DNA of 64,000 bases. It comes from Paramoeba atlantica. Taxonomy: Eukaryota; Protista; Discosea. The position numbers and the translations under genes were made by a program. This document shows, one piece after another, positions 1,203 through 64,000 of the stretch. The stretch covers positions 124,001 to 188,000 of the forward strand of contig CDRNVI010000018.1 of NCBI GenBank assembly GCA_977017575.1, written 5' to 3'. Every line of letters begins with the position of its first letter. The stretch's first letter is position 1. The notes below the pieces were generated by a model. That model was not told the DNA's origin. It ran no database searches and saw only the letters and a list, made by a program, of their open reading frames with translations.

Positions 1203-1669
1203 TTTTTTTTTTTTTTTTTTTTTTATCCTGTCAAAATTTTTTTTTTTACAGAAGAAATCCGCAGCGAGGCGTCCGAACATTCAATAAAGCAGAAACAATA
1301 TAAAGTATCTAATTCCAGAAATACACACTTCTGTCTCTTTTCACTGAACATACAATATTTTTATAGAACAGGAATACATGTATACTACGATCTATAATGC
1401 GCACGCTAATAAGATAATAACTTGGTACCGAATCTAAAATCAATAATAAAACAAGTAAATACTATGTGAAGGGGCTAAGCCCCCCAACACTCGCAGCCTC
1501 CAACCCGCTCACGCGTAGCTATTGAGCTCCTTTCTCGCGTTTATCCAATGTCGCTTGTCATGATAGAATGCCAAAAAGGGTGACCAAACCTTCGTGACAC
1601 GCTTTTCCGAGGAACTAGCCCTGCCTAGATTCTGAACTAAAGAAAACAATTTTTTTTTTTTTTTAAAAA

Positions 1670-4579
1670 CTACATGTATATGAACGTCACTCGAAATTCC
1701 GACAAATGATCTGCAGGATTGAGCTTTGTCGAAACGTAATTCGCTTTGATGCAAAGGTGTCGTTCTTTCGCCCACTCCAAAACACTGCACAACTCTGGTG
1801 CAATCCCGTCTGATTTACAAATTTTTCTGTTGAATGCGGCCTTGCAGGAAGTGTTATCGATCCACAACTGAAGACACGTTTGTGGCTCAAATTTGTCCGC
1901 AAATTTTTCAAGTGCGAGTCGTACCGCTTGAGCTTCGGCCTTGTTGACTTCATATTCTGTCCCCGGCTCCCACGGACTTCCGACAATACATACCTCCCCA
2001 TTGTCGAGATATAAGATCGCCCCCCATCCCTTGGCTGACGCATCGGTATAAAGGTTATGACGCGGCGGTGATAACTCCGGATGCGGAGAGGGCTCAACGG
2101 GTACGTTTTCAAGCAGTTTGTTGCGCCATTCTCCCAGCTTAGAACGAATCTTATACGGAAGGTCCACGACTTGATTAGCCATATGCGGCACTCGGTTGAG
2201 CAAATTTATTCTGCGCTGACAGATTTTTAATACGAAATGATATTTGGGGATTATGAGTCCTAAGATTGCGGAGCAATACAAAAGGCGCCCCACCGCCGCC
2301 TCTAGCTCCACAAATGTCGGCTTCATAAATGAATCTTCGCGTAGTTTGAGCAACACTTTGGGCCCCAGGCTGACCCTATGCGTGCTGTGGTTGTACTGTG
2401 CCCCATTAAAAACATACTTTTTCATAGGCAACATACCGGAATCCTTGAATCCTGCGTTCACACCTTCCGCCCGGCGATCAACCCACGTCGTATAACGCAA
2501 CGCTTCGTGCGTCGCACCAGCAAAACGAACTCCATCGACATATACATCGATGTGGCCCTTATCAAAAGTGGCCGGCTTAGAACAATAATCACTTGATCCA
2601 GCGATAGTCCCCATAATGGAATGCATGATTTCAGGGGCACATCTGTGCCCCATTGGGAGAACGCACATCTCGTACACTTCTCCTGCTTCGTCCAAAAAAC
2701 GAAATTTCCGGCGAGATTTTTCTGGTATCGATATTTGGTAAAAGCCGCACACCAAATCTCTCTTCACTCCCGAACTTTCTTTTACGCGGTGCAAATATTT
2801 CGCGGGATGCATTAACGGAACGAAAGGTTCATAACTAGAAAGACGTGTGTTATCAGATTTGGTCCAGGAAATGAATCGCCTGCGTTGTCGCCCTTCATCA
2901 TCCGATTCTACCACCGTAAATGGAATAAGGTACTGCATTGAAGGTCTCTTAGCAACGTCCTCCGCCGTTAGTTTCTTAATGATATTATGCTTTTCAAGTA
3001 GTTGAAAGTCTGAGGAAGACAGTCCGCTTTTAACCGCAGGAGGTTCTTCTGGATGTACGGGCATCTTAAGCGCTTCTTGCCATACTTCTTGAAATCTCGT
3101 GTCAACAGCTGGGGACATCCATTTCCGGACCTTATTAACATCAAGTTTCGGAATATTCGGTTTGACATGCAACGGAATCGCGAAATCCTTTTCCTTAGCT
3201 AGCTTAGAGCTACGTCGTGTGCAAATTAACGAATGTCGCTTTAAATATGGAACTTGTTTATAACACTCCTGGATCATCTCTGGGGTCACAGCCCCGGAAG
3301 CAGTGCTGAAACTCTTTGGGTCCCCAAGGCTCGCGCGGTCGTCAATTGGTTTGCATTGTAGCGAAGAAGACTTTCCAGGTTCAAATGCTTTGTGAGGTAC
3401 TGAATCTCCGACAAGGTGAGGCGGCCCTCGACCACGTGTTGGAATAGATGTGTTATTGCCCCGCGTTTGATTGAGTGGGTACCAAACCCTCTTCCTAGAA
3501 TTTTTCTTATTTCCGCATCCATTTCCCGCACGGGAGTATGGCATATCTTCTGTTTTGGCGGAAGCCCCTCTATGTAGCGTGCTAGCTCTGGCGTCCCCGG
3601 ACCCGTTATGACGGCATGCATATACGGCCGGAAGGGGTTTAGGCGTGTTGATTTCGTCGCCCGACCCCAATAAATCACTATCTCGGTTGAGGATACCTTG
3701 AGAAACTTCTCCCTGCAGAGTTCGGCGACCTCTGTCCACCGCGCCGCCGCTTTCCAGCACAGCAGCACGGCCATGGTCTGTGAGACTGTTATCCTGCTGC
3801 ACAATTTCCGTAGCAGATACGGGGTCAGTGGCTCCATCTGACGTTGTGGCTCCAGCCCCCCCTGCGCTTGTAGTGCCTTCGAGTATAGCTTGAGAGGGGT
3901 GTTGTCCTCGTTTATGCATGTGTAAATGGTGTGTAGACTTCTTGTGTAGGCTAGCCGCGTCGTTACCGCAACGCTTAGGGAATCCAGAAACAATATTGCG
4001 TGCAGCGCAGTTGGACGTATGCTTCTTTTCTCGCAGAACTCGTTTAGTCGCATCCAAATACGTTCCCTTGTGGCCCACGTCGTTTCCGTCCACATCGGAT
4101 ATACTGCCCTCTGAAGAGCCGGCGCCAGCGCGTCGTTTGGATCCATACGGAGGAGTTGGCACGTCAAGTTCAACCTTCTTGTTTTCGCTAAGGGGCCTGA
4201 TAGGTCCGTTTGGTGTCCTGCGGGACGATTTATCCTCTTTTGAGTTCGACCCGTACCTGTAGTGTTTGTTTGACTCATTGTTTGAGTCACGAGTATTTGC
4301 TGCGCATTCCGCAGTGTGCTGACATATCGCACACCGTTCCATACATAACTTGGAGATGAACGTGTAAAATAGCCTGGTAAGTTCTCCCGCCTTTTGTATA
4401 AGGCAGGAGCACGAGTAGTTGTTTTCGGGGTGGGGAACGTTTCCTAGTGGATCGTTCGTCTTTCGGCACGAGTGTAGCTCACAGGTGTCTTCGTACCGCC
4501 ACTCGCCACCCCCCGGTGAAAATCCTTTAACCGTGGACAATTGGCCCGCAAGTGCCCAGGCATGCGACAGTTGAAGCAC
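1670..4579 (-). CDS. Pol (RT + RNase H) of B1, frame open across the YR gene
   Basis: RDLVCGFYQI, LPMGHRCAPE, YVDGV; RNase H LYTDAS..GWG, NKAEAQA, WIDNTS, NPADHL. Confidence 0.92.
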   Translation of the reverse strand: MLQLSHAWALAGQLSTVKGFSPGGGEWRYEDTCELHSCRKTNDPLGNVPHPENNYSCSCLIQKAGELTRLFYTFISKLCMERCAICQHTAECAANTRDSNNESNKHYRYGSNSKEDKSSRRTPNGPIRPLSENKKVELDVPTPPYGSKRRAGAGSSEGSISDVDGNDVGHKGTYLDATKRVLREKKHTSNCAARNIVSGFPKRCGNDAASLHKKSTHHLHMHKRGQHPSQAILEGTTSAGGAGATTSDGATDPVSATEIVQQDNSLTDHGRAAVLESGGAVDRGRRTLQGEVSQGILNRDSDLLGSGDEINTPKPLPAVYACRHNGSGDARASTLHRGASAKTEDMPYSRAGNGCGNKKNSRKRVWYPLNQTRGNNTSIPTRGRGPPHLVGDSVPHKAFEPGKSSSLQCKPIDDRASLGDPKSFSTASGAVTPEMIQECYKQVPYLKRHSLICTRRSSKLAKEKDFAIPLHVKPNIPKLDVNKVRKWMSPAVDTRFQEVWQEALKMPVHPEEPPAVKSGLSSSDFQLLEKHNIIKKLTAEDVAKRPSMQYLIPFTVVESDDEGRQRRRFISWTKSDNTRLSSYEPFVPLMHPAKYLHRVKESSGVKRDLVCGFYQISIPEKSRRKFRFLDEAGEVYEMCVLPMGHRCAPEIMHSIMGTIAGSSDYCSKPATFDKGHIDVYVDGVRFAGATHEALRYTTWVDRRAEGVNAGFKDSGMLPMKKYVFNGAQYNHSTHRVSLGPKVLLKLREDSFMKPTFVELEAAVGRLLYCSAILGLIIPKYHFVLKICQRRINLLNRVPHMANQVVDLPYKIRSKLGEWRNKLLENVPVEPSPHPELSPPRHNLYTDASAKGWGAILYLDNGEVCIVGSPWEPGTEYEVNKAEAQAVRLALEKFADKFEPQTCLQLWIDNTSCKAAFNRKICKSDGIAPELCSVLEWAKERHLCIKANYVSTKLNPADHLSEFRVTFIYM
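3286..4443 (-). CDS. Tyrosine recombinase of B1 (track ORF 3286-4332; frame open up to the gag stop)
   Basis: AARWTE (R), HSIKRGA (HxxR), KHLNLESLLRY (H...Y). Confidence 0.92.
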   Translation of the reverse strand, partial: ETFPTPKTTTRAPALYKRRENLPGYFTRSSPSYVWNGVRYVSTLRNAQQILVTQTMSQTNTTGTGRTQKRINRPAGHQTDLSGPLAKTRRLNLTCQLLRMDPNDALAPALQRAVYPMWTETTWATRERIWMRLNEFCEKRSIRPTALHAILFLDSLSVAVTTRLAYTRSLHTIYTCINEDNTPLKLYSKALQAQGGLEPQRQMEPLTPYLLRKLCSRITVSQTMAVLLCWKAAARWTEVAELCREKFLKVSSTEIVIYWGRATKSTRLNPFRPYMHAVITGPGTPELARYIEGLPPKQKICHTPVREMDAEIRKILGRGFGTHSIKRGAITHLFQHVVEGRLTLSEIQYLTKHLNLESLLRYNANQLTTARALGTQRVSALLPGL

Positions 4580-5068
4580 AGCGGAGGCTGGGTCGCACGT
4601 ACCCGACGAGACTGCTTTGAAGTTTCCTCTAGCATAATACGTCCATAGGTGTCGTCAGGGTTCTTCACCTGGTGAAGTCGCTGCTGTACTTTCTCAACTG
4701 GAGCGCCGGCCGCGGCCCAATAATGGTTTCTTAGCTCCTCTATAATGATCTTAGCTATGTTGTAGAAGTTTTCGTCTGTCCATTCTGCCAACTTGCGCGC
4801 CGCATAAATCCACTGAACGAGCATTTCGAATAAGCGTTCCCGAACAAGCGGAGGATTGAACCGTACGCCGAATTCTTTCGTATCGCGGAGCTCTCGCACC
4901 AGTTCCCGTGGCTTAAACTCATCTGGGGATTCTATCCATGGACCCCATGTTTTTGGTTCAATGGGAGAGAAGTTCTTGGGATCAGAGATGGTCAAACGGT
5001 CTACAGAAGGAAGATGCTCAACTCGCTCACCGCCTGGCATCCGAGCTTGTACTTTAGCAATCGCCAAT
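4444..5068 (-). CDS. Gag C-terminal half of B1 with CCHC knuckle
   Basis: CFNCRMPGHLRANC; FKPRELVRELR and IIEELRNHYWAAAG shared with the other gags. Confidence 0.9.
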
Positions 5069-6768
5069 GAAATCCACGCCGAGGGGCTCCCTGGAAACAT
5101 ATACACTGATAACATATATGAATAAATGAACAACTATGAATAGCTCAATCGTAATTCAAAATGACACAACATATCATTCATTCATTTCACACGCACAAAG
5201 ATGGAAAAGAAACAAGCCTGCATAAAACAACACAATCAATGTCACTCTGTTAACGGGGTTCCCCCCCCCCACCGGAACCCTCGGCCAACCTGCCCATCGG
5301 AGGTGACCTGGCCATCGGAGGTGGCCTGGCTGATGACAGCCAAAACAGAAAGGTCCTTGGCTGCGTCGACGAGGAGCACGCTGCGCAGTCCGGCCCCTCA
5401 GTTGCTCGTCAACCACAAGCTGACCGTAGCGGTCCTGAGGGTCGTCGTCACGGTGCAACCGCTGTTGCACACGCTCGACAGCAACGCCCGCCGCAGCCCA
5501 ATAATGGTTGCGAAGCTCTTCGATGATGAGAAGGGCTACGGCGAGGTTGTGCTTCTCTAGCCATCCCTCCGTATTGCACGCAGCGTACACCCATTCAGTT
5601 AACATCTTGAACAGGCGCTCACGCTGCGGCGGAGGGTTGAAGCGTACCCCAAGCTGCGGAGCTTCGCGCAGCTCACGGATGAGTTCACGTGGCTTGAACA
5701 AATCATCCGTGTCGATCCACGGTTGCCAAGTAACCGGATCGTAGGGGGAGAAGCCTTTCGGGTCCGTAATACGGACGCGTTCAAACGTGGGGATCAGATC
5801 TTCAACTGGTTTCCCACCCGGCATCTGCGCCCGAACATGGGCCAGTTCCAAAGAGTGGTAGTTGATCTCGGGATGGGGAAAACGATAGGCAGTGTTCTTG
5901 TCCCCATCCCACTCGGCGAACAACTCAGTTGAGTTAGGGTCCTTAGGATGCGTCATATGCACCAACCCTATAACCGTCTGCCGTAGGCCGTCACGGGGAA
6001 GGGACCATACAGCCTCGACGGTGACCTCGTAGTCCTTGCGCAGAAGCTCAATCACTTTCGTGATGAACTCTTCTTTGCTGGATTGTGTCATGATCCCACG
6101 CGCATCACAGCGTGAACGCTGAGGCAACTCGACGTGGTCAATGTCAAGGGCCTCGTAACGGCGCGGCGAGCGAGAAGCCTCAACCTGGTCGGGGTTAAGG
6201 GTTCCTCTTCGTCGCATATGGGGCTCGGGAGCCTCCAGCGGAAAAGGGTACGGGCTAGGGAGGGAGCTCGCAGGCAAACTGGGAAGGTTGGAAGGGAGAG
6301 GGCTAGGCGGTTCGCGGGCGGGGCTGAGTGCTCTTCCTGAAGGGCGTACCTTTCGGCGCGCTGGGACAGGAGTAGGGGGAATCGGAGGAGGTCGCGCGGA
6401 TACCTGCGGAGCCGGCTGCGTGGGGAGAGGGGGGAGAGGGGGGCGCACGGGAGGGCACGAAAGGGACTGACGCTTAGAATGGTCTTGGACGGAGGAGGTC
6501 TGAATGGGTGTCGGCGCCCTATTCCGCTTCGGTGATCTATCGCGCTCCTGGCGTGGCTCCGACGGAGCCCGTAAACGTTGGGATCTCATACACAAAACTT
6601 TAAACGTAACAAAATAACAACCTAACAAGAATATAACAAACGAGTAAACACCCCCCTCCATGCAATTAGAGAATACTACATCATAATTTGAGAAAATTAT
6701 GTGCCCCGAAGGGCCAGCAGGCAAATATATAGCCGCCCCTCGGCTAAATTTCAAAACGTGAACTATTA
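5069..6768 (-). mobile_element. Internally deleted family-A element (A end, gag, B end; no YR or pol)
   Basis: Ends TAATAGTTCACG...CGTGGATTTC. Gag (ATG at 6589) is cut in the knuckle and fused through an 18-bp duplication to the 3' region. Inserted at tattactc^attggc with no TSD. Confidence 0.9.
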
Positions 6769-7172
6769 GAGTAATAGTCAATATCTGGGAACGGGAAGCT
6801 GTACTCCATATCTTGTTCATCATCCCAACGCGCCTTTAATTCTGAGTGGTCAGGGTCATTGCGATTTTTCAAGTACACTTGGCCGATTACTGTATATTGC
6901 TCGGTCTCTTCCTTGTGGCCCCATACTGCCTGAATCCAAACCTTATGACCTCGAGAGAGAAGCAATCGCATCTTATGAGCAAATTCATATTTCGCATCAT
7001 CCGTCATCGGCAAACGTACATCGTTTCCAAGGAGGGCTTCAACCTGGTCAGGGTTGAGGGTACCGCCTCGTCGGCTATGTCGGGAAACCTGGGGCTCCGG
7101 AGCTTGAGGCTCAGGGCTGTTTGCTCTAGATCGTGAAATTGCCCTAGTAACAGCTTGGACGATTCCAGACAT
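6769..7172 (-). CDS. Gag N-terminal half of B1
   Basis: MSGIVQAVTRAIS...TLNPDQVEA...FPFPDIDYYS, homologous to the B2 gag N-terminus. Confidence 0.88.
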
Positions 7173-7212
7173 AAAAATTCGAAAACGTGTAGATTTTGTA
7201 TTTGAATAGTCC

Positions 7213-7251
7213 CAACAAGGTACAGAAACTGTATCTTTATCGTTAAAGAAG
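7213..7251 (-). other. Full 39-nt SL relic between 29-bp direct repeats
   Basis: CTTCTTTAACGATAAAGATACAGTTTCTGTACCTTGTTG; repeats at 7184-7212 and 7252-7280; an AG (plus-strand 7281-7282) precedes the upstream repeat. Confidence 0.9.
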
Positions 7252-7318
7252 AACGTGTAGATTTTGTATTTGAATAGTCCCTAAGCACATACACATCCGT
7301 TAATAACTTTTCTAATGA

Positions 7319-7956
7319 GAAATCCACGCCGAGGGGCTCCCTGGAAACATATACACTGATAACATATATGAATAAATGAACAACTATGAATAGCTCAATC
7401 GTAATTCAAAATGACACAACATATCATTCATTCATTTCACACGCACAAAGATGGAAAAGAAACAAGCCTGCATAAAACAACACAATCAATGTCACTCTGT
7501 TAACGGGGTTCCCCCCCCACCGGAACCCTCGGCCAAATGGCTGGGGGCTCGGTGGGTGGGCACAAAACTTTAAACGTAACAAAATAACAACCTAACAAGA
7601 ATATAACAAACGAGTAAACACCCCCCTCCATGCAATTAGAGAATACTACATCATAATTTGAGAAAATTATGTGCCCCGAAGGGCCAGCAGGCAAATATAT
7701 AGCCGCCCCTCGGCTAAATTTCAAAACGTGAACTATTAGAAATCCACGCCGAGGGGCTCCCTGGAAACATATACACTGATAACATATATGAATAAATGAA
7801 CAACTATGAATAGCTCAATCGTAATTCAAAATGACACAACATATCATTCATTCATTTCACACGCACAAAGATGGAAAAGAAACAAGCCTGCATAAAACAA
7901 CACAATCAATGTCACTCTGTTAACGGGGTTCCCCCCCCACCGGAACCCTCGGCCAA
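7319..7956 (-). repeat. B1-A2-B2 terminal repeat block, 420-bp period
   Basis: The B repeat occurs twice around an A copy; the internal junction GGATTTC|TAATAG joins the two element termini. Confidence 0.92.
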
Positions 7957-9540: not shown

Positions 9541-9862
9541 TTTTTTTTTTTTTTTTTTTTTTTTGATTCTAATGTTTATATCTACGTTTCGAACTTTCCA
9601 CCACTTAAAACCTTTCACCCTACTTCCTTCCTTCCCCTACTTCCTTCCCCTCACCACACTCACTTCCCTTCCCCCACTTACGCCCTACCGACTGACGCAT
9701 CCCTACTGACCGGCTCGTCCGCACATGTGGCCCATGTGGTCCAGGACCTCCGCTCCCACCCCGTTAGCAGTATAAGATACTTTGAGTTGCTGTACGAGGG
9801 TGGGAGACTTGGAGGAGACGAAACGCATAGCCGCCGTCACGCCGAGGGCAAAAAGCGGGACT
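9541..9862 (-). mobile_element. 3' fragment of the SL-capped short retroposon
   Basis: Near-identical to 32480-32780, with its own poly(A). Confidence 0.85.
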
Positions 9863-17209: not shown

Positions 17210-17666
17210 GAAATCCACGGCGAGGGCATCCGGACATTAACATAATCAAATCACGAATATGATAAAGTAAAGAAGTATCTAATTGAAAACATAGCTTATG
17301 TTGAACGTCTACTTCTCGTTATGCTATGGTTCCTCTTATGATGCTAGTAGATTTCTCCTATTGCTGAATAACGCGCGCTGTATAAATATTCAAAAAAGGG
17401 GCCCTGGTACCACACAATTAAACTCAGAATGTTGAAGAAAAGGGAATACTTTGTGAAGGGGCTTAGCCCCCCACGCTCCGCAGCCGCCAACCCGCTCACT
17501 CGTAATGAATTCCTTGTCACTGGTAACTAAAATCACTACCTGTATGAAGAATGCTCGAAAATTGACCAGACTTTCGTAGCGTCTCCAAAACCTAAACGAA
17601 ACTTTTTTTTTTTTTTTATTATTATTCTATATAAACTAAATTTCATATAAATACGGTTGAATCGAA

Positions 17667-22042: not shown

Positions 22043-22256
22043 TCTTCGAAAACGTGTAAATAAACTTTGAAGAATAGCCTTCACACAACACAAAATCAAC
22101 AAACAGAACAATATTTCTACCAGAAACAATACATACATATTATCAATAATTTCACTTGAAATGTAATCATATAAAAGCTTAAAATACAGCGCGTACAATG
22201 CCCGCCGGCCACGTAAGTAAATAGCCCTCGCCTAAATTTCTTACCGTAAACTTTTA

Positions 22257-24882: not shown

Positions 24883-26002
24883 ACACAAAACTTTAAACGT
24901 AACAAAATAACAACCTAACAAGAATATAACAAACGAGTAAACACCCCCCTCCATGCAATTAGAGAATACTACATCATAATTTGAGAAAATTATGTGCCCC
25001 GAAGGGCCAGCAGGCAAATATATAGCCGCCCCTCGACTAAATTTCAAAACGTGAACTATTAATTTACGAAATCAATCAATCAACAGTCACATTCTCAATG
25101 ATAAGTAAAACTATACGTAATAAGCTCTCGCCTGAATTTCTTACCGAATTGCTCATCAGAATATAATTTTAATAAACAAATAATCAATTTGTAATCACTA
25201 AATATAATTTAAATACGAGGCACCCAAATACCTGTGTTTTGAACGTTACTATAAATAAAATTATTTGATGAATATAGTACTAAAGGACGTCCTTATAAAA
25301 ACAATCTTCACCTCTCTCTCTCTTGCGAGTGGGTAGTTCCCCGGCGGGGAGTGGTTCGGGGGATGGCGGGTGGGGCAACTTTCCTTTTGCGAAATTAGAG
25401 AAAAGCTACTAGTGTAATAATAAAGTATAGTATTGTATAATTGATAATCTACAAATATACATGGTTCCCCCCAGAGGGGGCAATGTCACACTGAAATCAG
25501 ATCATAATATTAAATATCATGTGCCCCGTAGGGCCACGGTCAGATCTCATACAGAATCAAAAGTATCTTCTTTGATCAATTCTTTCCGTAAACTATAAGA
25601 ATTGCTCATCAGAATATAATTTTAATAAACAAATAATCAATTTGTAATCACTAAATATAATTTAAATACGAGGCACCCAAATACCTGTGTTTTGAACGTT
25701 ACTATAAATAAAATTATTTGATGAATATAGTACTAAAGGACGTCCTTATAAAAACAATCTTCACCTCTCTCTCTCTTGCGAGTGGGTAGTTCCCCGGCGG
25801 GGACCACCCACTCGCCAGTTCTCACACTCACCCACACGCTAGTAATGAAACCCCCAGGCGAAACCCCCAGGTCGCCTACTACCTGAGAGCCCCCCTCATC
25901 ACCTCGTACTCTCACTCACACATTGCCCAATCCTCACATCAACATACATCCCATACATATCAAAATCGCTCGAATATCCGTTCTTCCTGGTTATTGATTG
26001 TA

Positions 26003-30550: not shown

Positions 30551-31759
30551 ATCTAAAATCAATAATAAAACAAGTAAATACTATTTGAAGTTGTTTATCC
30601 TTCGTTGCTGAGCTTTTTGAGTCTAACTTTTCATCACTTACTACTATTAGACTTTCCCTCCAGAAGTTGGAGCCATTTTTTTTTACTATAGTGTAATCCT
30701 TTCAGGTCAGGGCATCCGGCTTACGTTGTATGTCGGAAAACGTTGTCTTAATAATTGTATGATATAAACTGCGAATCCTCTTCAAACAATTCTTTTCGTA
30801 AACTATGAGACTTCCTACCACGGATTCTCACTGCATATTCCATCAAAAAGCGCAAATATCGTCCCCATGGCTTTGGCTCAGGTACTTTCTGAGCTGGCCT
30901 AGGAGAATGTTTCCATTCGAAATCCACGCCGAGGGGGCTCCATGAAACATATAAGTAACAAACAAATATAAGCAAATACCTATGACTAATATAATCACAC
31001 TTCCAAATCGTCCCAAAATCAAAGAACACATAATACGATATATAGATAGAATTCACATGCACAAACATAGTTCAAAAGAAAGCCTGCATAAAACAAATAA
31101 TCATGTGTCACGTTGTTAACGGGATTCCCCCCCACCGGAACCCTCGGCCAAATGGCTGGGGGCTTGGTGGGTGGGCACAAAAACTTAAAGCGAAGTAAAT
31201 AACAACCTAACAAGGATATATAAGATAATAGTAAATACCCAGCCCATGTAAAATTCGGAATACAAATCATAATTCGAAGAAACTATGTGCCCCTAAGGGC
31301 CAGCAGGCAAATACATAACAGCCCCTCGGCTAAATTTCAAAACGTGGACTATTAGAAATCCACGCCGAGGGGGCTCCATGAAACATATAAGTAACAAACA
31401 AATATAAGCAAATACCTATGACTAATATAATCACACTTCCAAATCGTCCCAAAATCAAAGAACACATAATACGATATATAGATAGAATTCACATGCACAA
31501 ACATAGTTCAAAAGAAAGCCTGCATAAAACAAATAATCATGTGTCACGTTGTTAACGGGATTCCCCCCCACCGGAACCCTCGGCCAACCTGCCCACACAC
31601 ACGTCACACAATCAATATAAATAACAAAGAAATGCCCAATCACATAGTAAAATAATTTTTCATATACCATCCCAGAACTCACAAAAGGATAACGATAGCA
31701 ATAGATGACCAGTCCACTGCCACGCCCTTTGTTTTCTTTTTTCTTTGTTTTTTGTCTTT

Positions 31760-32421
31760 GTTTTTTTTTTTTTTTTTTTTTTTTTTTGCAAATAATTGGG
31801 GGGAATAGTATTGAGTCTAACTTTTTATGTATGGAGTCCAACTTTTCCACAATTTCCACACTTACGGCCCTTCACTTTCCCTTACTCCCCATACTTTCCA
31901 CACCTACTCCTCTTAGCCCTCTCGTACTTCCCTTCCCTCACTCCCTACCCCACTCACCGATCCGCATGCACCCAGGCCCGTATGGTCCTGCACCTCCGCT
32001 CCCACCCCGTTAGCAGTAATAAATACTTTTGGTTGCCGTACGAGGGTGGGAGACGTGGAGGCCACGAAACACAAAGACGTCGTCACGCCGAGGGAGAAGA
32101 GCGCGGAGAGAGACACGGGGCGACTGACGCAAGGGCGAGAGGAGGCGAAGCACGGGACCATCTGCCAGGAACTCTGCCCCCACCCCGTGAGCAAGTATTG
32201 TATACTTTTGGCTGCTGACACGGGGGTGGTGGACGCGAGAGAGAAACACAACAGGGGGGCAAGCGCACTGCGGAGGGAGGGTGAGGTGGGGGGATGCGGC
32301 GCAGGGGGGTGATGGGACGAGACGGGGAAGGGGGATGCCGACAAAAAGGAGTGTATTTGAGGGGGGTGCCCTCCCATGGTCTGGAAGATGGTGTATGGAA
32401 GAAAAGGGGAAATAATTCAAC

Positions 32422-32426
<5 letters not shown>
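31760..32426 (-). mobile_element. SL-capped short retroposon, copy a
   Basis: Starts with the SL 3' end (A)CCTTGTTG at 32418-32426; two long hairpins; poly(A) tail. Confidence 0.8.
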
Positions 32427-32457
<31 letters not shown>

Positions 32458-33122
32458 TTTTTGGGGGGGGGGGAGTAGTATTGATTCTAATGTTTATATC
32501 TACGTTTCGAACTTTCCACCACTTAAAACCTTTCACCCTACTTCCTTCCTTCCCCTACTTCCGTCCCCTCACCACACTTACTTCCCTTCCCCCACTTACG
32601 CCCTACCGACTGACGTGTCCCTACTGACCGGCTCGTCCGCACTGTGGCCCATGTGGTCCAGGACCTCCGCTCCCACCCCGTTAGCAGTATAAGATACTTT
32701 GAGTTGCCGTACGAGGGTGGGAGACTTGGAGGAGACGAAACGCATAGCCGCCGTCACGCCGAGGGCAAAAAGCGGGAAGAGGGACATGGCGGGACGGACG
32801 CGGGGACAAGGAGAAACGGCGCCCGAGCCCATCGGTCTGGACCTCTGCCCCCACCCCGTGAGCAAGTATACAATACTTTGGGCTGCTGGCACGGGGGTGG
32901 GGGACGCAAGAGAGGAAAACAACAGAACGACAAGCGCGCTTACACGGAAGGTCGAGGTGGGGGGATACGGCGCAGGGGGATGATGGGACGAGAGAGGGAG
33001 GGGGGATGCCGACAAGAAAGTGTGTATTTGAGGGGGGTGCCCTCCCATGGTCTGGAAGATGGTGTAGGGAAGAAAAAGGAAATAATTCAACAAGGTACAG
33101 AAACTGTATCTTTATCGTTAAA
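32427..33122 (-). mobile_element. SL-capped short retroposon, copy b
   Basis: 35 nt of SL at 33088-33122; hairpins at 32848-32903 and 32670-32723; A-rich tail. Confidence 0.85.
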
Positions 33123-40454: not shown

Positions 40455-43035
40455 TTTTTTTTTTTTTTTCTGAGCCTTCTCCCAAAGATCGTTCGTATTA
40501 TCCTAAATCTCGCAGGCATTCTAAACACGGATAATCGTTGTGAATAATAATAAGAACTTTTAAGAGCTTTTCTAATGTGCGAACTTGTTGGTCGACTCAC
40601 TGACGCAGTCCACCAATCCAATGTGCTTCTGGAATATACTCGCGGAGCTGCGATACAATAGTATACGCTGCTAGCTTTTCTATCTCGAGTTGGAAGGCCT
40701 CACGTACGTCTTCGTACTTTTGTTTGGCTCGTTGGGATAATGCCTTGAGGAGGGTTTTGGTGTCGTTGTGCAGAAGACCGCAGTCAGAGGCGGCCAGGCA
40801 ACGAAAAGAGTCGCTTTCTACGCCTTTCTCCGTAACGTACTTCTTGAATTTCTTGTCGAGCACGTGCTGCATCAGCGCTGTACTTGTTTGTTTGGCATAG
40901 CTGCTGCAACAAGTGTGAACAACGGTAAAATCATACAGGACCTCCCCCATGTGGGGCCACATAATAGCAAGATCAGGACCGGATCGGATTCTGCGGGCTT
41001 TGCAAGGATGATGTTCAGCTACTTCCGCTGAGATGGAACACTTGCACTTAGTACAGAAAAACGAAGAATGGATGCGCGGTTCGATAATACAAGGGAGACC
41101 AGCTTTGGAGCACAAATCTGCGAGGTACCTCACTATGTGTGAGTGCTTTCTGGTGCAATTCATGCCCGAGCACCGGGAGCATCCTGCGACGTGTGGTATA
41201 ATGCTGGTAGGAGATTCATGGCCACAGCATCCAGGGCATATAACATCGGCCGGTGCGTTATGTAATCCGATGCCCAAACGCATCATCAAAGTGTATCGGA
41301 AGAGGTACGGGTTTACATAATTGCTGGTGCTTTCTAAATGCATGTTTGATTCCTTTGTACGCTTCAATAAAAGTCCCATGTGAGAATCCTTCTGCAGCTC
41401 AGTTATCTGTTTATCGTGTTCTGCACTTAGCTTCTTTTTCAATAGCTTGCGCGCTGCCTCTCCTCGACTTTGCGGTTGTTTCACAGCTTTTTCGCTGCCT
41501 TTCTGATCTACCGGAGCGTTATTGGGTTTAAGGTGCTCATCAATAGATTTGCTGGCAGTTTCGAAGAAATGTTTTTGCTTCAGAGTCGAGGAAATTAAGC
41601 CTAGGCCACCGAGTTTCTGTGGTAGAGCGGCGAGTTTCAGGGCGTTTGCGTCTGCTCCACTCCACTTTTCTAGAACTTTGTTTACTTGGTTCTCGAAGGA
41701 TTGTGCTAGTTGGAAAGTAGCGCCTGGCCGATGTACTCGTAGATGGTAATCGTGCCGTGGAATCGTACAACGGCGGAGAATGGCAAGAGACAAATTACTG
41801 GGACCCATAAGCAACAACCTGCGGAATAGGCACTTGTGTTTCTCCATTTTCTTGATCAGCAGATTTTCCACGACTTGGTCTGTACCTACGTATGCGCCTA
41901 AGACTTTTATCGCATCACTGCAAAAGTTTACTCCAAGTTTTTCCAACGGAGGAGGCTGAGCTATGTTGGGAATGTTCTTCTGAAACCAATCGCATTTCTG
42001 GAAATTAATTCGGAGGTTCATCTCTGCGGCGATCTCACGCAGGTAAAAGAAAGCTGCCTCCAATGCTTGCACGTTTTTGGAGCTCAAAGTCACATCGTCT
42101 TGGTATGCTCGGATCTTCACGTCAGGATAGAGGTGCATGAGTTCTCGTAGCGGGCCTTGCAAAAGTGCGCAGAAGTACATTGATGAAAGTGCCGATCCTT
42201 GGCGAATTCCTGAAGAGCTTTCGATGGTAGCAAACAGAGCATTGTGCGCAAAAAATAGCAGCTCAGAGGGAATCCCATATTCTAGGTAGAATAGGCGCAT
42301 GAAAGGCTTGAAAATGGGATTACCAAGGAGTGCCTCAGCAATGGCGTTGCGTTGTGGTGTATTATACGCGTTGCTAAAATCGACGGTGAGGAGAGCATGT
42401 CCTTCTTCGTATTCATTTAAAAGTTCGTGAACGATGGACTCACATGCGTTTTTTTGCAAAATGCCTCGTTGAATTGGGGAGAAAAAATTTTGCAGAGCGT
42501 TTTCATGTCGTTGTAGAAGGATGGAGCCGCAAATCTTCAGAATGGTATCCCCCATCGCAATAGGTCGAATTCCATTTTGAGGTTTCGCTAGCGCGATGAT
42601 TCTGCATCGGGTTAGACGTTTTCGCACATTCAGAGGAACTTCGCCGTTGATGACATCCCGAAGCATGTGGCAAAGTGAAAGACATGACTCTTCGTCGTCT
42701 ACGAGCAGTCGCATCATGCTTTCACTCAGGCCGGTTGTAGAGAGATCATGATAGAGGAGATACTGAGAGAGACAATCTCTCTCCTCATCGGAATCATTCT
42801 CGGACTCTTGTGAGGTCGGCCTTGCATCAGAAAATTTTATCCTTGGCCGTCGGTAGTTGCTATGTACCTCGTGGTCGGCCCAGTTCGGCGATAATTCCTT
42901 TGCACTCATAATAACTCTCACACGGGGGGTTTTCTTTGGCTTATCGAGCGTTGATCCCCTCTTCATAATTTGTTCGGCGTTTTGCGTGTTCATACGAGTA
43001 AAAATAAAAATAAAAACAACAACAAGGTACAGAAA
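40455..43035 (-). mobile_element. CRE-4: SL-initiated CRE-like element with an in-frame internal deletion
   Basis: SL fragment 43020-43035; poly(A) about 40455-40469. Confidence 0.85.
40597..42993 (-). CDS. CRE-4 ORF (RT, CCHC, RLE)
   Basis: RPIAMGD, VDFSNAYN, GIRQGSALSS, AYQDD, CPGC...HVAGC, SGPDLAIMW, YDFTVVH; lacks the beta-rich domain (jump near 42760). Confidence 0.88.
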   Translation of the reverse strand: MNTQNAEQIMKRGSTLDKPKKTPRVRVIMSAKELSPNWADHEVHSNYRRPRIKFSDARPTSQESENDSDEERDCLSQYLLYHDLSTTGLSESMMRLLVDDEESCLSLCHMLRDVINGEVPLNVRKRLTRCRIIALAKPQNGIRPIAMGDTILKICGSILLQRHENALQNFFSPIQRGILQKNACESIVHELLNEYEEGHALLTVDFSNAYNTPQRNAIAEALLGNPIFKPFMRLFYLEYGIPSELLFFAHNALFATIESSSGIRQGSALSSMYFCALLQGPLRELMHLYPDVKIRAYQDDVTLSSKNVQALEAAFFYLREIAAEMNLRINFQKCDWFQKNIPNIAQPPPLEKLGVNFCSDAIKVLGAYVGTDQVVENLLIKKMEKHKCLFRRLLLMGPSNLSLAILRRCTIPRHDYHLRVHRPGATFQLAQSFENQVNKVLEKWSGADANALKLAALPQKLGGLGLISSTLKQKHFFETASKSIDEHLKPNNAPVDQKGSEKAVKQPQSRGEAARKLLKKKLSAEHDKQITELQKDSHMGLLLKRTKESNMHLESTSNYVNPYLFRYTLMMRLGIGLHNAPADVICPGCCGHESPTSIIPHVAGCSRCSGMNCTRKHSHIVRYLADLCSKAGLPCIIEPRIHSSFFCTKCKCSISAEVAEHHPCKARRIRSGPDLAIMWPHMGEVLYDFTVVHTCCSSYAKQTSTALMQHVLDKKFKKYVTEKGVESDSFRCLAASDCGLLHNDTKTLLKALSQRAKQKYEDVREAFQLEIEKLAAYTIVSQLREYIPEAHWIGGLRQ

Positions 43036-49816: not shown

Positions 49817-51770
49817 ACAAAAACTTAAACGTAGTACGACTAACAACCTAACAAGGATATATAAGAAATAGTAGAATATCCAATCCATGTAATTATAGAA
49901 CACAAATCATAATTTGAAGAAATTATGTGCCCCGAAGGGCCAGCAGGCAAATACATAACAACCCCTCGGCTAAATTTCAAAACGTGGACTATTATTTAGA
50001 TGTCAACGGATATTATCTCTCAGCTATTTCACCAGTATAGAATATTTCTAAAATCTATTACTTGTCTTCGAGGTGCTCCCGAAGTTGGGAGTATACCACG
50101 AGGCCGTTGAAGTTTTGCAACAGTAGCTTGAACGAGAGTTCCGTCTCGCGGGCGTTCAGAAGACAAGCGTCTGCCAAGGCTCTGATCAGATTGCGTGTGT
50201 TCGCGTGTAGTGATCCGGAGGACAGAATCGGAATGCATTGGAACGATTCTTGGGCGATCATTCCCGTTGCGACGTAAGTTTCCATTTTGCGATGAATGAC
50301 GTCACGGATCAATTGAGAGCTTTTCTTATTTATGTGGGAAGGTGTCATCTCGTGCACGACGGTAAGATCATAAAATATAGCTCCTGTGTCCCAGTATATC
50401 ACAAGGTCTGGCCCAGATCGATGAAGGTGCCGTCCTGTACATATTTTGCTGTGCGTAGGTTGGCTTTCTCGGCTTACCACATTTCTACACGTAGTGCACG
50501 TCCAGTTACTGAATGCTCGAGGTTCACTCTCACATGGTATCCCTGCGCGCATGCAAAGGTCGTGGAAGAATTTCACCAGCATGTTGTGCTTCACGGAGGC
50601 ATTGATACCAGAGCATTGCGCACACCCAACTTCTCGCTTGGGGCAATGCCGCCCCGGACACATGAAGGTCTAAAACTTAGTAGGGAAAAAAATACAAAAA
50701 GTGATCAACAAGGCTGGGTCCTCTTGGATATGGTTTTCGTCATGGGCTATGTTCTCGTGTGATTGACTCGTAGATCCGATGCGGAAGTTCTTGGCTTTGA
50801 TTTTGATTAGATTCCGCGATGTGATTTCACACGGAGGCTCATGGTCCGCCCAATTCGGGGCTAGTGTTTTGGAACCTATTATCTTGATCTTTGGAGTCTT
50901 CTTCACCTTCACTGGTGTCTCCGTGTGCGATCCTGATTCTTCTGCTACCTTTATTCCGTTCGTCTTGCTTTGATCTCGTTGAGTACGTTGTTTTTCAACT
51001 CTCCCGTGAGACTTCCCGTTGTTCACTGTTGTTCTGCTGCCCGTTTTCCGCGTGTTTTCGGAATCTAAACGAGAAGACGTACGAGAGAGGCGTGTCATAA
51101 GCGTAGAAAAATAGAAAATTAAAATCAACAAGGTACAGAAAGTAAGATCATAAAATATAGCTCCTGTGTCCCAGTATATCACAAAGTCTGGCCCAGATCG
51201 ATGAAGGTGCCGTCCTGTACATATTTTGCTGCGCGTAGGTTGGCTTTCTCGGCTTGCCACATTTCTACACGTAGTGCACGTCCAGTTACTGAATGCTCGA
51301 GGTTCACTCTCACATGGTATCCCTGCGCGCATGCAAAGGTCGTGGAAGAATTTCACCAGCATGTTGTGCTTCACGGAGGCATTGATACCAGAGCATTGCG
51401 CACATCCACTGATGTGAGTGAGAGCTGATCTGTTGTCGAGTATGGAACGGCATACTGGGCATAGCAAGCTTTTCGGCAGGCGCGGATGTTCTATCCCCAA
51501 TCTCGGCATTATGGCTAATTCAAAAACGTGGGGTGGAATATAGCTCAACCGGTACGAGCTGGGATTTAATTGTGGGGGGTAGGGCAAAGTGTGGGGGGGA
51601 TAGAAAAAACCCCCGGGTGTTTTTACCTTTCGGGTGTCACTTTTTCACTGCATTTCTCTTCAGGGAGGCGGCTTCGTGGGGGGAAATTGTTTGCTAGTTT
51701 GGGGTGGGCTGATTGCTTGTGGAAGGAGGTAAAAATTAAGAAATTTACATACATTCAAAAAAAAAAAAAA

Positions 51771-52648: not shown

Positions 52649-52733
52649 CTTCTTTAACGATAAAGATACAGTTTCTGTACCTTGTTGAATTATTTTCTTT
52701 ATTTCATCTTTTCCAGGTACGCGGTTCTTTCTC

Positions 52734-62055: not shown

Positions 62056-64000
62056 GATCAAGTTTTTTGTAAGATCAAGTTTTTTGTAAGATCAAGTTTT
62101 TTGTAAGATCAAGTTTTTTGTAAGATCAAGTTTTTTGTAAGATCAAGTTTTTTGTAAGATCAAGTTTTTTGTAAGATCAAGTTTTTTGTAAGATCAAGTT
62201 TTTTGTAAGATCAAGTTTTTTGTAAGATCAAGTTTTTTGTAAGATCAAGTTTTTTGTAAGATCAAGTTTTTTGTAAGATCAAGTTTTTTGTAAGATCAAG
62301 TTTTTTGTAAGATCAAGTTTTTTGTAAGATCAAGTTTTTTGTAAGATCAAGTTTTTTGTAAGATCAAGTTTTTTGTAAGATCAAGTTTTTTGTAAGATCA
62401 AGTTTTTTGTAAGATCAAGTTTTCTGTAAGATCAAGTTTTTTGTAAGATCAAGTTTTTTGTAAGATCAAGTTTTTTGTAAGATCAAGTTTTTTGTAAGAT
62501 CAAGTTTTCTGTAAGATCAAGTTTTTTGTAAGATCAAGTTTTTTGTAAGATCAAGTTTTTTGTAAGATCAAGTTTTTTGTAAGATCAAGTTTTTTGTAAG
62601 ATCAAGTTTTTTGTAAGATCAAGTTTTTTGTAAGATCAAGTTTTTTGTAAGATCAAGTTTTTTGTAAGATCAAGTTTTTTGTAAGATCAAGTTTTTTGTA
62701 AGATCAAGTTTTTTGTAAGATCAAGTTTTTTGTAAGATCAAGTTTTTTGTAAGATCAAGTTTTTTGTAAGATCAAGTTTTTTGTAAGATCAAGTTTTTTG
62801 TAAGATCAAGTTTTTTGTAAGATCAAGTTTTTTGTAAGATCAAGTTTTTTGTAAGATCAAGTTTTTTGTAAGATCAAGTTTTTTGTAAGATCAAGTTTTT
62901 TGTAAGATCAAGTTTTTTGTAAGATCAAGTTTTTTGTAAGATCAAGTTTTTTGTAAGATCAAGTTTTTTGTAAGATCAAGTTTTTTGTAAGATCAAGTTT
63001 TTTGTAAGATCAAGTTTTTTGTAAGATCAAGTTTTTTGTAAGATCAAGTTTTTTGTAAGATCAAGTTTTTTGTAAGATCAAGTTTTTTGTAAGATCAAGT
63101 TTTTTGTAAGATCAAGTTTTTTGTAAGATCAAGTTTTTTGTAAGATCAAGTTTTTTGTAAGATCAAGTTTTTTGTAAGATCAAGTTTTTTGTAAGATCAA
63201 GTTTTTTGTAAGATCAAGTTTTTTGTAAGATCAAGTTTTTTGTAAGATCAAGTTTTTTGTAAGATCAAGTTTTTTGTAAGATCAAGTTTTTTGTAAGATC
63301 AAGTTTTTTGTAAGATCAAGTTTTTTGTAAGATCAAGTTTTTTGTAAGATCAAGTTTTTTGTAAGATCAAGTTTTTTGTAAGATCAAGTTTTTTGTAAGA
63401 TCAAGTTTTTTGTAAGATCAAGTTTTTTGTAAGATCAAGTTTTTTGTAAGATCAAGTTTTTTGTAAGATCAAGTTTTTTGTAAGATCAAGTTTTTTGTAA
63501 GATCAAGTTTTTTGTAAGATCAAGTTTTTTGTAAGATCAAGTTTTTTGTAAGATCAAGTTTTTTGTAAGATCAAGTTTTTTGTAAGATCAAGTTTTTTGT
63601 AAGATCAAGTTTTTTGTAAGATCAAGTTTTTTGTAAGATCAAGTTTTTTGTAAGATCAAGTTTTTTGTAAGATCAAGTTTTTTGTAAGATCAAGTTTTTT
63701 GTAAGATCAAGTTTTTTGTAAGATCAAGTTTTTTGTAAGATCAAGTTTTTTGTAAGATCAAGTTTTTTGTAAGATCAAGTTTTTTGTAAGATCAAGTTTT
63801 TTGTAAGATCAAGTTTTTTGTAAGATCAAGTTTTTTGTAAGATCAAGTTTTTTGTAAGATCAAGTTTTTTGTAAGATCAAGTTTTTTGTAAGATCAAGTT
63901 TTTTGTAAGATCAAGTTTTTTGTAAGATCAAGTTTTTTGTAAGATCAAGTTTTTTGTAAGATCAAGTTTTTTGTAAGATCAAGTTTTTTGTAAGATCAAG
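62056..64000. repeat. 17-bp satellite (GATCAAGTTTTTTGTAA)n, about 114 units, running off the window
   Basis: Exact 17-bp period; only two T>C variants seen (62424, 62509). Confidence 0.97.

What the first reader, a model, noticed from the sequence alone, without database searches (positions are those of the whole stretch)
7184..7290. A bare spliced leader written into the genome 29 nt after its own splice acceptor
The minus strand reads ...tgcttAG | 29-nt exon start | 39-nt SL | same 29 nt | ...ATG gag. The locus keeps the unspliced form (AG) and the spliced form (SL joined to exon +1) side by side. This supports trans-splicing at that AG and fixes the SL length. It fits a nicked DNA end priming on the element's own mature mRNA, copying to the 5' end, then rejoining (RNA-templated repair or abortive target-primed reverse transcription; inference).
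Basis: partly seen in the sequence, partly recalled or inferred. Interest (0 to 1): 0.8.

Follow-up and report, generated by a model that had tools for sequence, protein, structure and literature searches.

The report
Spliced-leader scar in a retrotransposon
A 36-base piece of the leader that kinetoplastid protists splice onto their mRNAs sits, between two copies of a 29-base exon start, in the front repeat of a VIPER-like retrotransposon; it is likely a reverse-transcription slip on the element's own spliced RNA, which would show what RNA these elements copy.

Summary
The layout is as described: AG, 29 nt, a 39-mer, the same 29 nt, then the gag ATG.

The 39-mer is not the leader. An SL RNA gene found in a metagenome has a 38-nt exon; the window holds its nt 3-38 plus three extra bases. 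'Fixes the SL length' fails.

The AG and 29-mer lie inside split direct repeat A of a VIPER-like tyrosine-recombinase retrotransposon. A sister family has one copy of the 29-mer and no leader, so 68 bp were added. Four such families all have an AG 31-36 nt before the end of A or the ATG.

Best reading: a cDNA of the element's own trans-spliced RNA ran through the leader and rejoined unspliced A at +29 (about 0.8). It happened either during the element's replication (0.45) or as RNA-templated repair in place (0.33). Several CRE-like elements in the window also carry leader heads.

This is one fossil in a dead copy. Raw-data support is thin and trans-splicing at this AG is inferred. It makes VIPER's RNA template testable.

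The parts
7281..7282 (-). AG, likely trans-splice acceptor of gag, inside repeat A1
   Evidence: sequence; an AG at the matching place in the sister family near 22080; use inferred
7252..7280 (-). first copy of the 29-nt exon start (unspliced context)
7249..7251 (-). three extra bases (CTT) repeating the first three of the leader piece; same three at 52649-52651
7213..7248 (-). spliced-leader exon nt 3-38, 36 of 36 identical to the SL RNA gene exon in L001:26-63(-)
7184..7212 (-). second copy of the 29-nt exon start (spliced context), identical to the first
   Evidence: one X3 contig 7184-7240
7178..7316 (-). 3' part of split direct repeat A1 of the host VIPER-like element; the part after the AG is 35 nt without the scar
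   Evidence: contigs in X1 and X2 leave the window at 7178 into a linker like the one after A2 at 7537-7561
25062..25146 (-). 5' part of the same A1, separated by a nested second VIPER-like element
   Evidence: X2 loose end at 7318 equals the end of this piece; start matches the sister A1 at 22246
6771..7172 (-). gag-like frame, 5' part, from the ATG at 7172
   Evidence: translation; DNA similar to the sister gag start
5069..6770 (-). internally deleted second VIPER-like element inserted in gag, sharing a TC core at both ends
4444..5070 (-). gag-like frame, 3' part with CCHC knuckle
   Evidence: Pfam zf-CCHC E 0.0015, below cut-off
3286..4443 (-). tyrosine recombinase frame
   Evidence: R, K, HxxR, H, Y pattern in alignment A1; Phage_integrase E 6.6e-4 on 1 of 5 window frames scanned
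1670..4654 (-). reverse transcriptase / RNase H frame overlapping the recombinase frame
   Evidence: RT_RNaseH E 0.0026, below cut-off; YVDG motif
1254..1517 (-). single B repeat at the 3' end (start approximate); no A2-B2 follows it
   Evidence: end motif shared with other B ends; similarity to 17445-17504
52649..52687 (+). the same 39-mer heading a 1281-aa RT-REL (CRE-like) element after a poly(A) tract

Best explanation
The locus is likely a cDNA scar: a reverse transcriptase likely copied the element's own trans-spliced RNA through the leader to near the cap, and the cDNA end was likely joined out of register to unspliced repeat A at +29 during the element's own replication. Shown: the layout, the identity of the leader, its place in repeat A, and that related sequence lacks it. 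Inferred model: trans-splicing at the AG removes the first 115-120 nt or so of A1. The 35 nt of A left on the RNA are also in A2 near the 3' end, so a cDNA would normally switch from A1 to A2 there and regain the lost part. Here it ran on into the leader, stopped at nt 3 (cap modifications, recalled), stuttered three bases and jumped or was closed end to end onto A2 at +29. The recombinase then would have integrated the circle at the B|A junction, giving A-ORFs-B with the scar, the form seen. The shared core (copy of its own spliced RNA) is about 0.8 likely; this route about 0.45. The scar has no apparent function: it adds no upstream ATG and the copy is broken by later insertions.
For: The leader's 3' end is exact and joins the base that follows an AG (chance about 0.06). 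The duplicated 29 nt fall wholly within the 35 nt of A after the AG. All 4 VIPER-like families examined have an AG 31-36 nt before the end of A or the ATG (other AGs also lie nearby). The sister family has one copy of the 29-mer homologue and no leader. This copy and two others (22246-17212, 49997-44736) have A at the front and a single B at the back. The element encodes its own Gag, recombinase and RT/RNase H. PMC6681497 section 12 notes a proposed Ngaro/PAT reverse transcription with annealing between the repeats.
Against: The same three extra bases head a CRE-like element at 52649, and a similar stutter is at 23971-23969; this suggests the CRE-type enzyme rather than VIPER's. Two CRE-like copies carry leader-headed pieces in mid-element, one with a 267-bp duplication, which looks like repair in place. 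Coupling of trans-splicing to upstream polyadenylation (recalled) would cut A2 off many transcripts, so the template must sometimes escape it. One event only; the 35-nt argument was made after seeing the data.
Confidence: 0.45

Rival explanations
1. RNA-templated repair in place. A break at +29 in an already integrated copy was primed on the homologous spliced RNA by a CRE-type reverse transcriptase, copied to the cap and rejoined to the upstream end.
For: Identical CTT at the CRE head 52649. In-window analogues: 51408-50362 has a 267-bp duplication around two leader-headed pieces; 43035 has a leader-headed piece of about 250 nt where roughly 160-190 nt of CRE sequence is missing. Several RT-REL frames are present.
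Against: It needs a break within 35 nt of the acceptor in an element of about 6 kb. The analogues use CRE RNA, not VIPER RNA. The stutter could come from the capped template and so from any enzyme.
Confidence: 0.33
2. A CRE-type endonuclease made a staggered cut and copied a free leader exon (a splicing intermediate) or only the head of a CRE RNA. The 29 bp are a target-site duplication and the AG is chance.
For: The geometry is that of an insertion with a target duplication. The 39-mer equals a CRE head. A 29-bp duplication for CRE1 is recalled, from no call.
Against: No poly(A) or CRE sequence in the insert. The AG at the boundary has a chance of about 0.06. The one measurable duplication around a leader-headed composite here is 6 bp (23969/13362; its 3' end is complex).
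Confidence: 0.1
3. Assembly or library artefact, or a DNA-level copy of the 39-mer from a CRE head with no RNA step.
For: The X1 and X2 contigs that cover 7252-7316 go on for 3 and 6 letters unlike the window, which fits the scar-free form in other copies (letters not shown). The 39-mer exists elsewhere in the window.
Against: An X3 contig holds the leader-exon join with no difference (short of the bridging bar). A DNA-level copy would have to stop exactly at the exon's last base and beside an AG.
Confidence: 0.12

Closest known systems
VIPER / TATE tyrosine-recombinase retrotransposons of kinetoplastids (PMC6681497, PMC12278014; passages read)
   Same: Gag-like, recombinase and overlapping RT/RH frames; split direct repeats A1 ... 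B1-A2-B2; no target duplication; a short A-linker-B unit like SIRE.
   Different: The passages read give no RNA 5' end, no acceptor position in A and no leader scar. No named VIPER was among the 7 homologues returned.
Relict spliced leaders of dinoflagellate retrogenes (PMC5585692; passages read)
   Same: A leader in genomic DNA marks a reverse-transcribed mRNA.
   Different: There whole mRNAs are re-inserted and lose the upstream sequence. Here only leader plus 29 nt is added and the acceptor is kept in front.
CRE clade non-LTR elements SLACS, CZAR, CRE1/2 (PMC12278014, PMC5814959; passages read)
   Same: RT plus restriction-like endonuclease elements in the window carry leader sequence at their 5' ends; one has the same 39-mer.
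   Different: Known members insert between nt 11 and 12 of SL RNA genes. Those here sit in poly(A) tracts and in other retroelements. The focal insert has no CRE sequence or poly(A).
Templated insertions at breaks and RT template switching (L1Tc RT switching: PMC5814959 passage; the rest recalled or seen only in search listing)
   Same: A short RNA-derived patch with a local duplication and junction bases.
   Different: The leader tags the template as a mature mRNA of the same locus.

Membership tests
VIPER/TATE-like (host element) | gag-like first ORF | tested here: met
   frame from 7172, broken at 6770, ends in a CCHC knuckle; Pfam E 0.0015, below cut-off
VIPER/TATE-like (host element) | tyrosine recombinase ORF | tested here: met
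   R, K, HxxR, H, Y pattern; Pfam hit only on a sister frame, 1 of 5, below cut-off
VIPER/TATE-like (host element) | overlapping RT/RNase H ORF | tested here: met
   1670-4654 overlaps the recombinase frame; weak RT_RNaseH hit, YVDG motif; no RVT_1 hit
VIPER/TATE-like (host element) | split direct repeats A1 ... B1-A2-B2 | tested here: inconclusive
   full set in two neighbouring families; for this family A plus linker is seen in contigs, but this copy has only A1 and one B
VIPER/TATE-like (host element) | no target-site duplication | tested here: inconclusive
   met for the nested relative at 6770/5070, TC core only; this copy's own flanks were not matched to an empty site
VIPER/TATE-like (host element) | groups with named VIPER rather than TATE in a tree | not tested
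SL RNA gene | exon followed by a GT donor and SL intron | tested here: not met
   the window reads GG after the exon; L001 reads GT
Retrogene with relict leader | mRNA copy at a new site without the sequence upstream of the acceptor | tested here: not met
   AG and upstream A1 are kept
CRE-clade insertion (focal 39-mer) | element body with 3' poly(A) | tested here: not met
   the insert is the leader piece plus three bases
CRE-clade insertion (focal 39-mer) | target is the SL RNA gene | tested here: not met
   the target is repeat A of a VIPER-like element
CRE-clade insertion (focal 39-mer) | target-site duplication | tested here: inconclusive
   a 29-30 bp direct repeat is present but is equally explained as a copied exon
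Trans-spliced exon start | leader joined at this AG in RNA | not testable with these tools
   only contigs of unrecorded kind were served

The most novel reading that the evidence does not exclude
VIPER-like retrotransposons replicate from a leader-capped, trans-spliced RNA. They put the splice acceptor about 35 nt before the end of repeat A, so that A2 restores what trans-splicing cuts from A1. This locus is a trapped circle junction from a missed strand transfer. More widely, leader tags make reverse-transcriptase run-off and template jumps countable across this genome, where CRE-like elements have left the SL array.
Probability: 0.35. Interest if true: 0.72.

Novelty: new variant of a known kind. 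Interest (0 to 1): 0.5.

Why it matters
How tyrosine-recombinase retrotransposons copy themselves in a genome where mRNA 5' ends are replaced by trans-splicing is not settled in the papers I read. If this reading holds, the scar fixes the 5' end of a VIPER-like RNA to the base, explains what the second A repeat is for, and predicts leader-containing circle junctions that inverse PCR can find. If repair in place is right, it is a natural, tagged case of a locus patched from its own mature mRNA. As a single event in a dead copy it has no function for the host.

Tried and rejected
No whole genome is held, so the genome-wide search for AG-n-SL-n could not be run.

Sequencing runs: no RNA holder listed. 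Four runs hold the stretch, all from one study, and one may be the source of the assembly. X5 (RNA is a guess) gave 2 contigs, both only on the leader. None of the 32 pieces listed spans 7252/7251 or reaches 7251 (361 more not shown; contigs drop rare variants, so this is no evidence either way). X4 has no cover at 7140-7205. Contig depths were not used as copy numbers.

A 41-nt leader beginning AAC-TTC was considered because 52649 follows a run of A. L001 and the depth step at 7248 disfavour it as the main form; a minor variant is not excluded. A fold-back origin of the three extra bases was rejected: fold-back forms are seen as loose ends at 7249 (X5, X2) but give other letters.

Rfam at gathering scores found nothing in the window and no SL family on L001. 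Viral contigs: 0 matches to the leader pattern; 152 pattern stretches but no relative of the recombinase. Earlier findings: three look-ups, nothing. Homologue searches gave no informative names.

It continues at 17211 after a nested element and is near full length; its 3' end is obscured.

The claim that T. cruzi SIRE supplies a splice acceptor is recalled. The primary paper is not held, and passages of PMC3418195, PMC2696322 and PMC5814959 did not state it. Passages of PMC6053224, PMC9210276 and PMC12440569 added nothing on mechanism. No supplementary files were read; those of PMC6681497 and PMC12278014 may annotate element ends.

Full report
Setting. The window is a nest of retroelements ending in a 17-nt tandem array. 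Two kinds dominate. One has gag-like, tyrosine-recombinase and RT/RNase H frames with split direct repeats, matching the description of kinetoplastid VIPER/TATE (PMC6681497: abstract, passages and section 12 read; PMC12278014: passages). The other has RT plus a restriction-like endonuclease motif close to the CRE-clade pattern given in PMC12857005 (passages). No whole genome was available.

Observation. On the minus strand: AG 7282-7281, 29 nt 7280-7252, 39 nt 7251-7213, the same 29 nt 7212-7184, ATG at 7172. The repeat is far beyond chance: 30 nt against at most 12 in 100 shuffles. One 57-nt contig of run X3 holds the leader-exon join without a difference, with 28 and 29 letters on the two sides, under the tool's bar of 31. 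The upstream join rests on the assembly.

The leader. The metagenome scan gave one match, L001. It has a 38-nt exon (start inferred from the AAC), then GT, next to a 5S rRNA gene: an SL RNA gene. The window has exon nt 3-38 exactly, preceded by CTT. The 14 euglenozoan exons tabulated in PMC3795323 (passages) are 39 nt and none is this one. Summed contig depth drops about tenfold at 7248 in all four runs laid.

Where it sits. The gag frame from 7172 is cut at 6770 by a nested element and resumes at 5070. Contigs in X1 and X2 follow the window to 7178 and then enter a linker like the one that follows A2 in the neighbouring family, so the AG and the 35 nt after it are part of repeat A. The front part of A1 is at 25146-25062; an X2 contig joins it to 7318. 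The sister family at 22246 has the matching AG and one copy of the 29-mer homologue. All four families examined have an AG 31-36 nt before the end of A or the ATG, with other AGs nearby. This copy ends in one B repeat with no A2-B2, as do two other copies.

Other leader pieces. The last 8 nt of the exon occur 10 times in the window against 1.9 expected; 7 extend further (36, 36, 35, 16, 16, 15 and 9 nt). Apart from the focal one, they head CRE-like elements or short relatives and are followed by a U-rich stretch and an ATG. The 52649 head has the same CTT. Two sit in mid-element: 43035, and 51141 with 50713 inside a 267-bp duplication. Whether CRE heads come from trans-splicing or from co-transcription with an SL gene is not known; known CRE elements insert in SL genes (PMC5814959, PMC12278014, passages).

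Mechanism. An exact leader 3' end joined to the base after an AG is best explained by a cDNA of the element's own trans-spliced RNA (about 0.8; the AG alone has a chance of 0.06). Two routes fit. In the replication route (0.45) the 35 nt of A left after splicing are the overlap for transfer to A2; the cDNA overran into the leader and was joined to A2 at +29, and the recombinase integrated the circle. It explains why the duplication stays inside A and the A-ORFs-B form. In the repair route (0.33) a CRE-type enzyme patched a break at +29 from the homologous RNA. It explains the shared CTT and has analogues in the window. A chance target duplication around a free leader (0.10) and an artefact or DNA-level copy (0.12) remain. 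All steps after the layout are inferred. A stop near the cap, coupling of splicing and polyadenylation, the SIRE acceptor and the 29-bp CRE1 duplication are recalled, from no call.

Comparison and novelty. Leaders in DNA as marks of retroposition are known in dinoflagellates (PMC5585692, passages), but as whole retrogenes. The locus is not an SL gene, a retrogene or a CRE insertion by the features tested. I found no report of a leader scar in a tyrosine-recombinase element or of trans-spliced VIPER templates. Searches were seen as listings; one search returned 0 papers, and none of the 20 listed held 'spliced leader'. The library lacks most subscription papers, including the primary VIPER and SIRE papers, and no supplements were read.

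Verdict. A real-looking, recent (both repeats identical), functionless fossil of reverse transcription through a trans-spliced 5' end. New variant of a known kind; interest 0.5. Its value is the testable model of how VIPER-like elements cope with trans-splicing.

Noticed in passing
window 50362-51408 (-): A 267-bp duplication of CRE-like endonuclease coding sequence encloses two leader-headed 5' pieces in tandem (16-nt leader + 412 nt, 8-nt leader + about 77 nt); looks like serial template jumps or repair.
   Followed up: partly
window 42770-43035 (-): A leader-headed 5' piece of one CRE-like RNA sits in the middle of another CRE-like copy where about 160-190 nt are missing.
   Followed up: partly
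window 43020-43035 and 51126-51141 (-): Both 16-nt leader pieces begin right after the leader's internal AG, which could reflect re-use of that AG as an acceptor or a stop at the leader hairpin.
   Followed up: no
window 31758-33122 (-) and 9563-9860: A short non-coding-looking element of about 660 nt with a leader head and poly(A) tail, in tandem; it shares its first bases with the CRE-like element at 52688 and sits in the A tract of VIPER-like elements.
   Followed up: partly
window 62056-64000: A 17-nt tandem repeat runs to the end of the window; satellite or an unusual telomere repeat.
   Followed up: no
L001 26-63 (-) and 450-568 (+): A 38-nt SL exon, one base shorter than the 14 euglenozoan exons tabulated in PMC3795323, about 390 nt from a 5S rRNA gene on the opposite strand.
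   Followed up: partly
window 7245, loose ends in runs X1-X5: A conserved non-window sequence lies upstream of a 33-nt leader match in all five runs, in X5 inside an 825-nt contig; possibly an SL gene variant or another repeat.
   Followed up: no
window 7537-7561, 25351-25374, about 31152-31176 (-): The linker between A2 and B2 is a C-rich run of about 24 nt that is similar across otherwise divergent VIPER-like families; a candidate priming site.
   Followed up: no
window 1254-50000: At least four VIPER-like families are nested in each other and in CRE-like elements; several insertions share a short T-rich core and show no duplication.
   Followed up: partly
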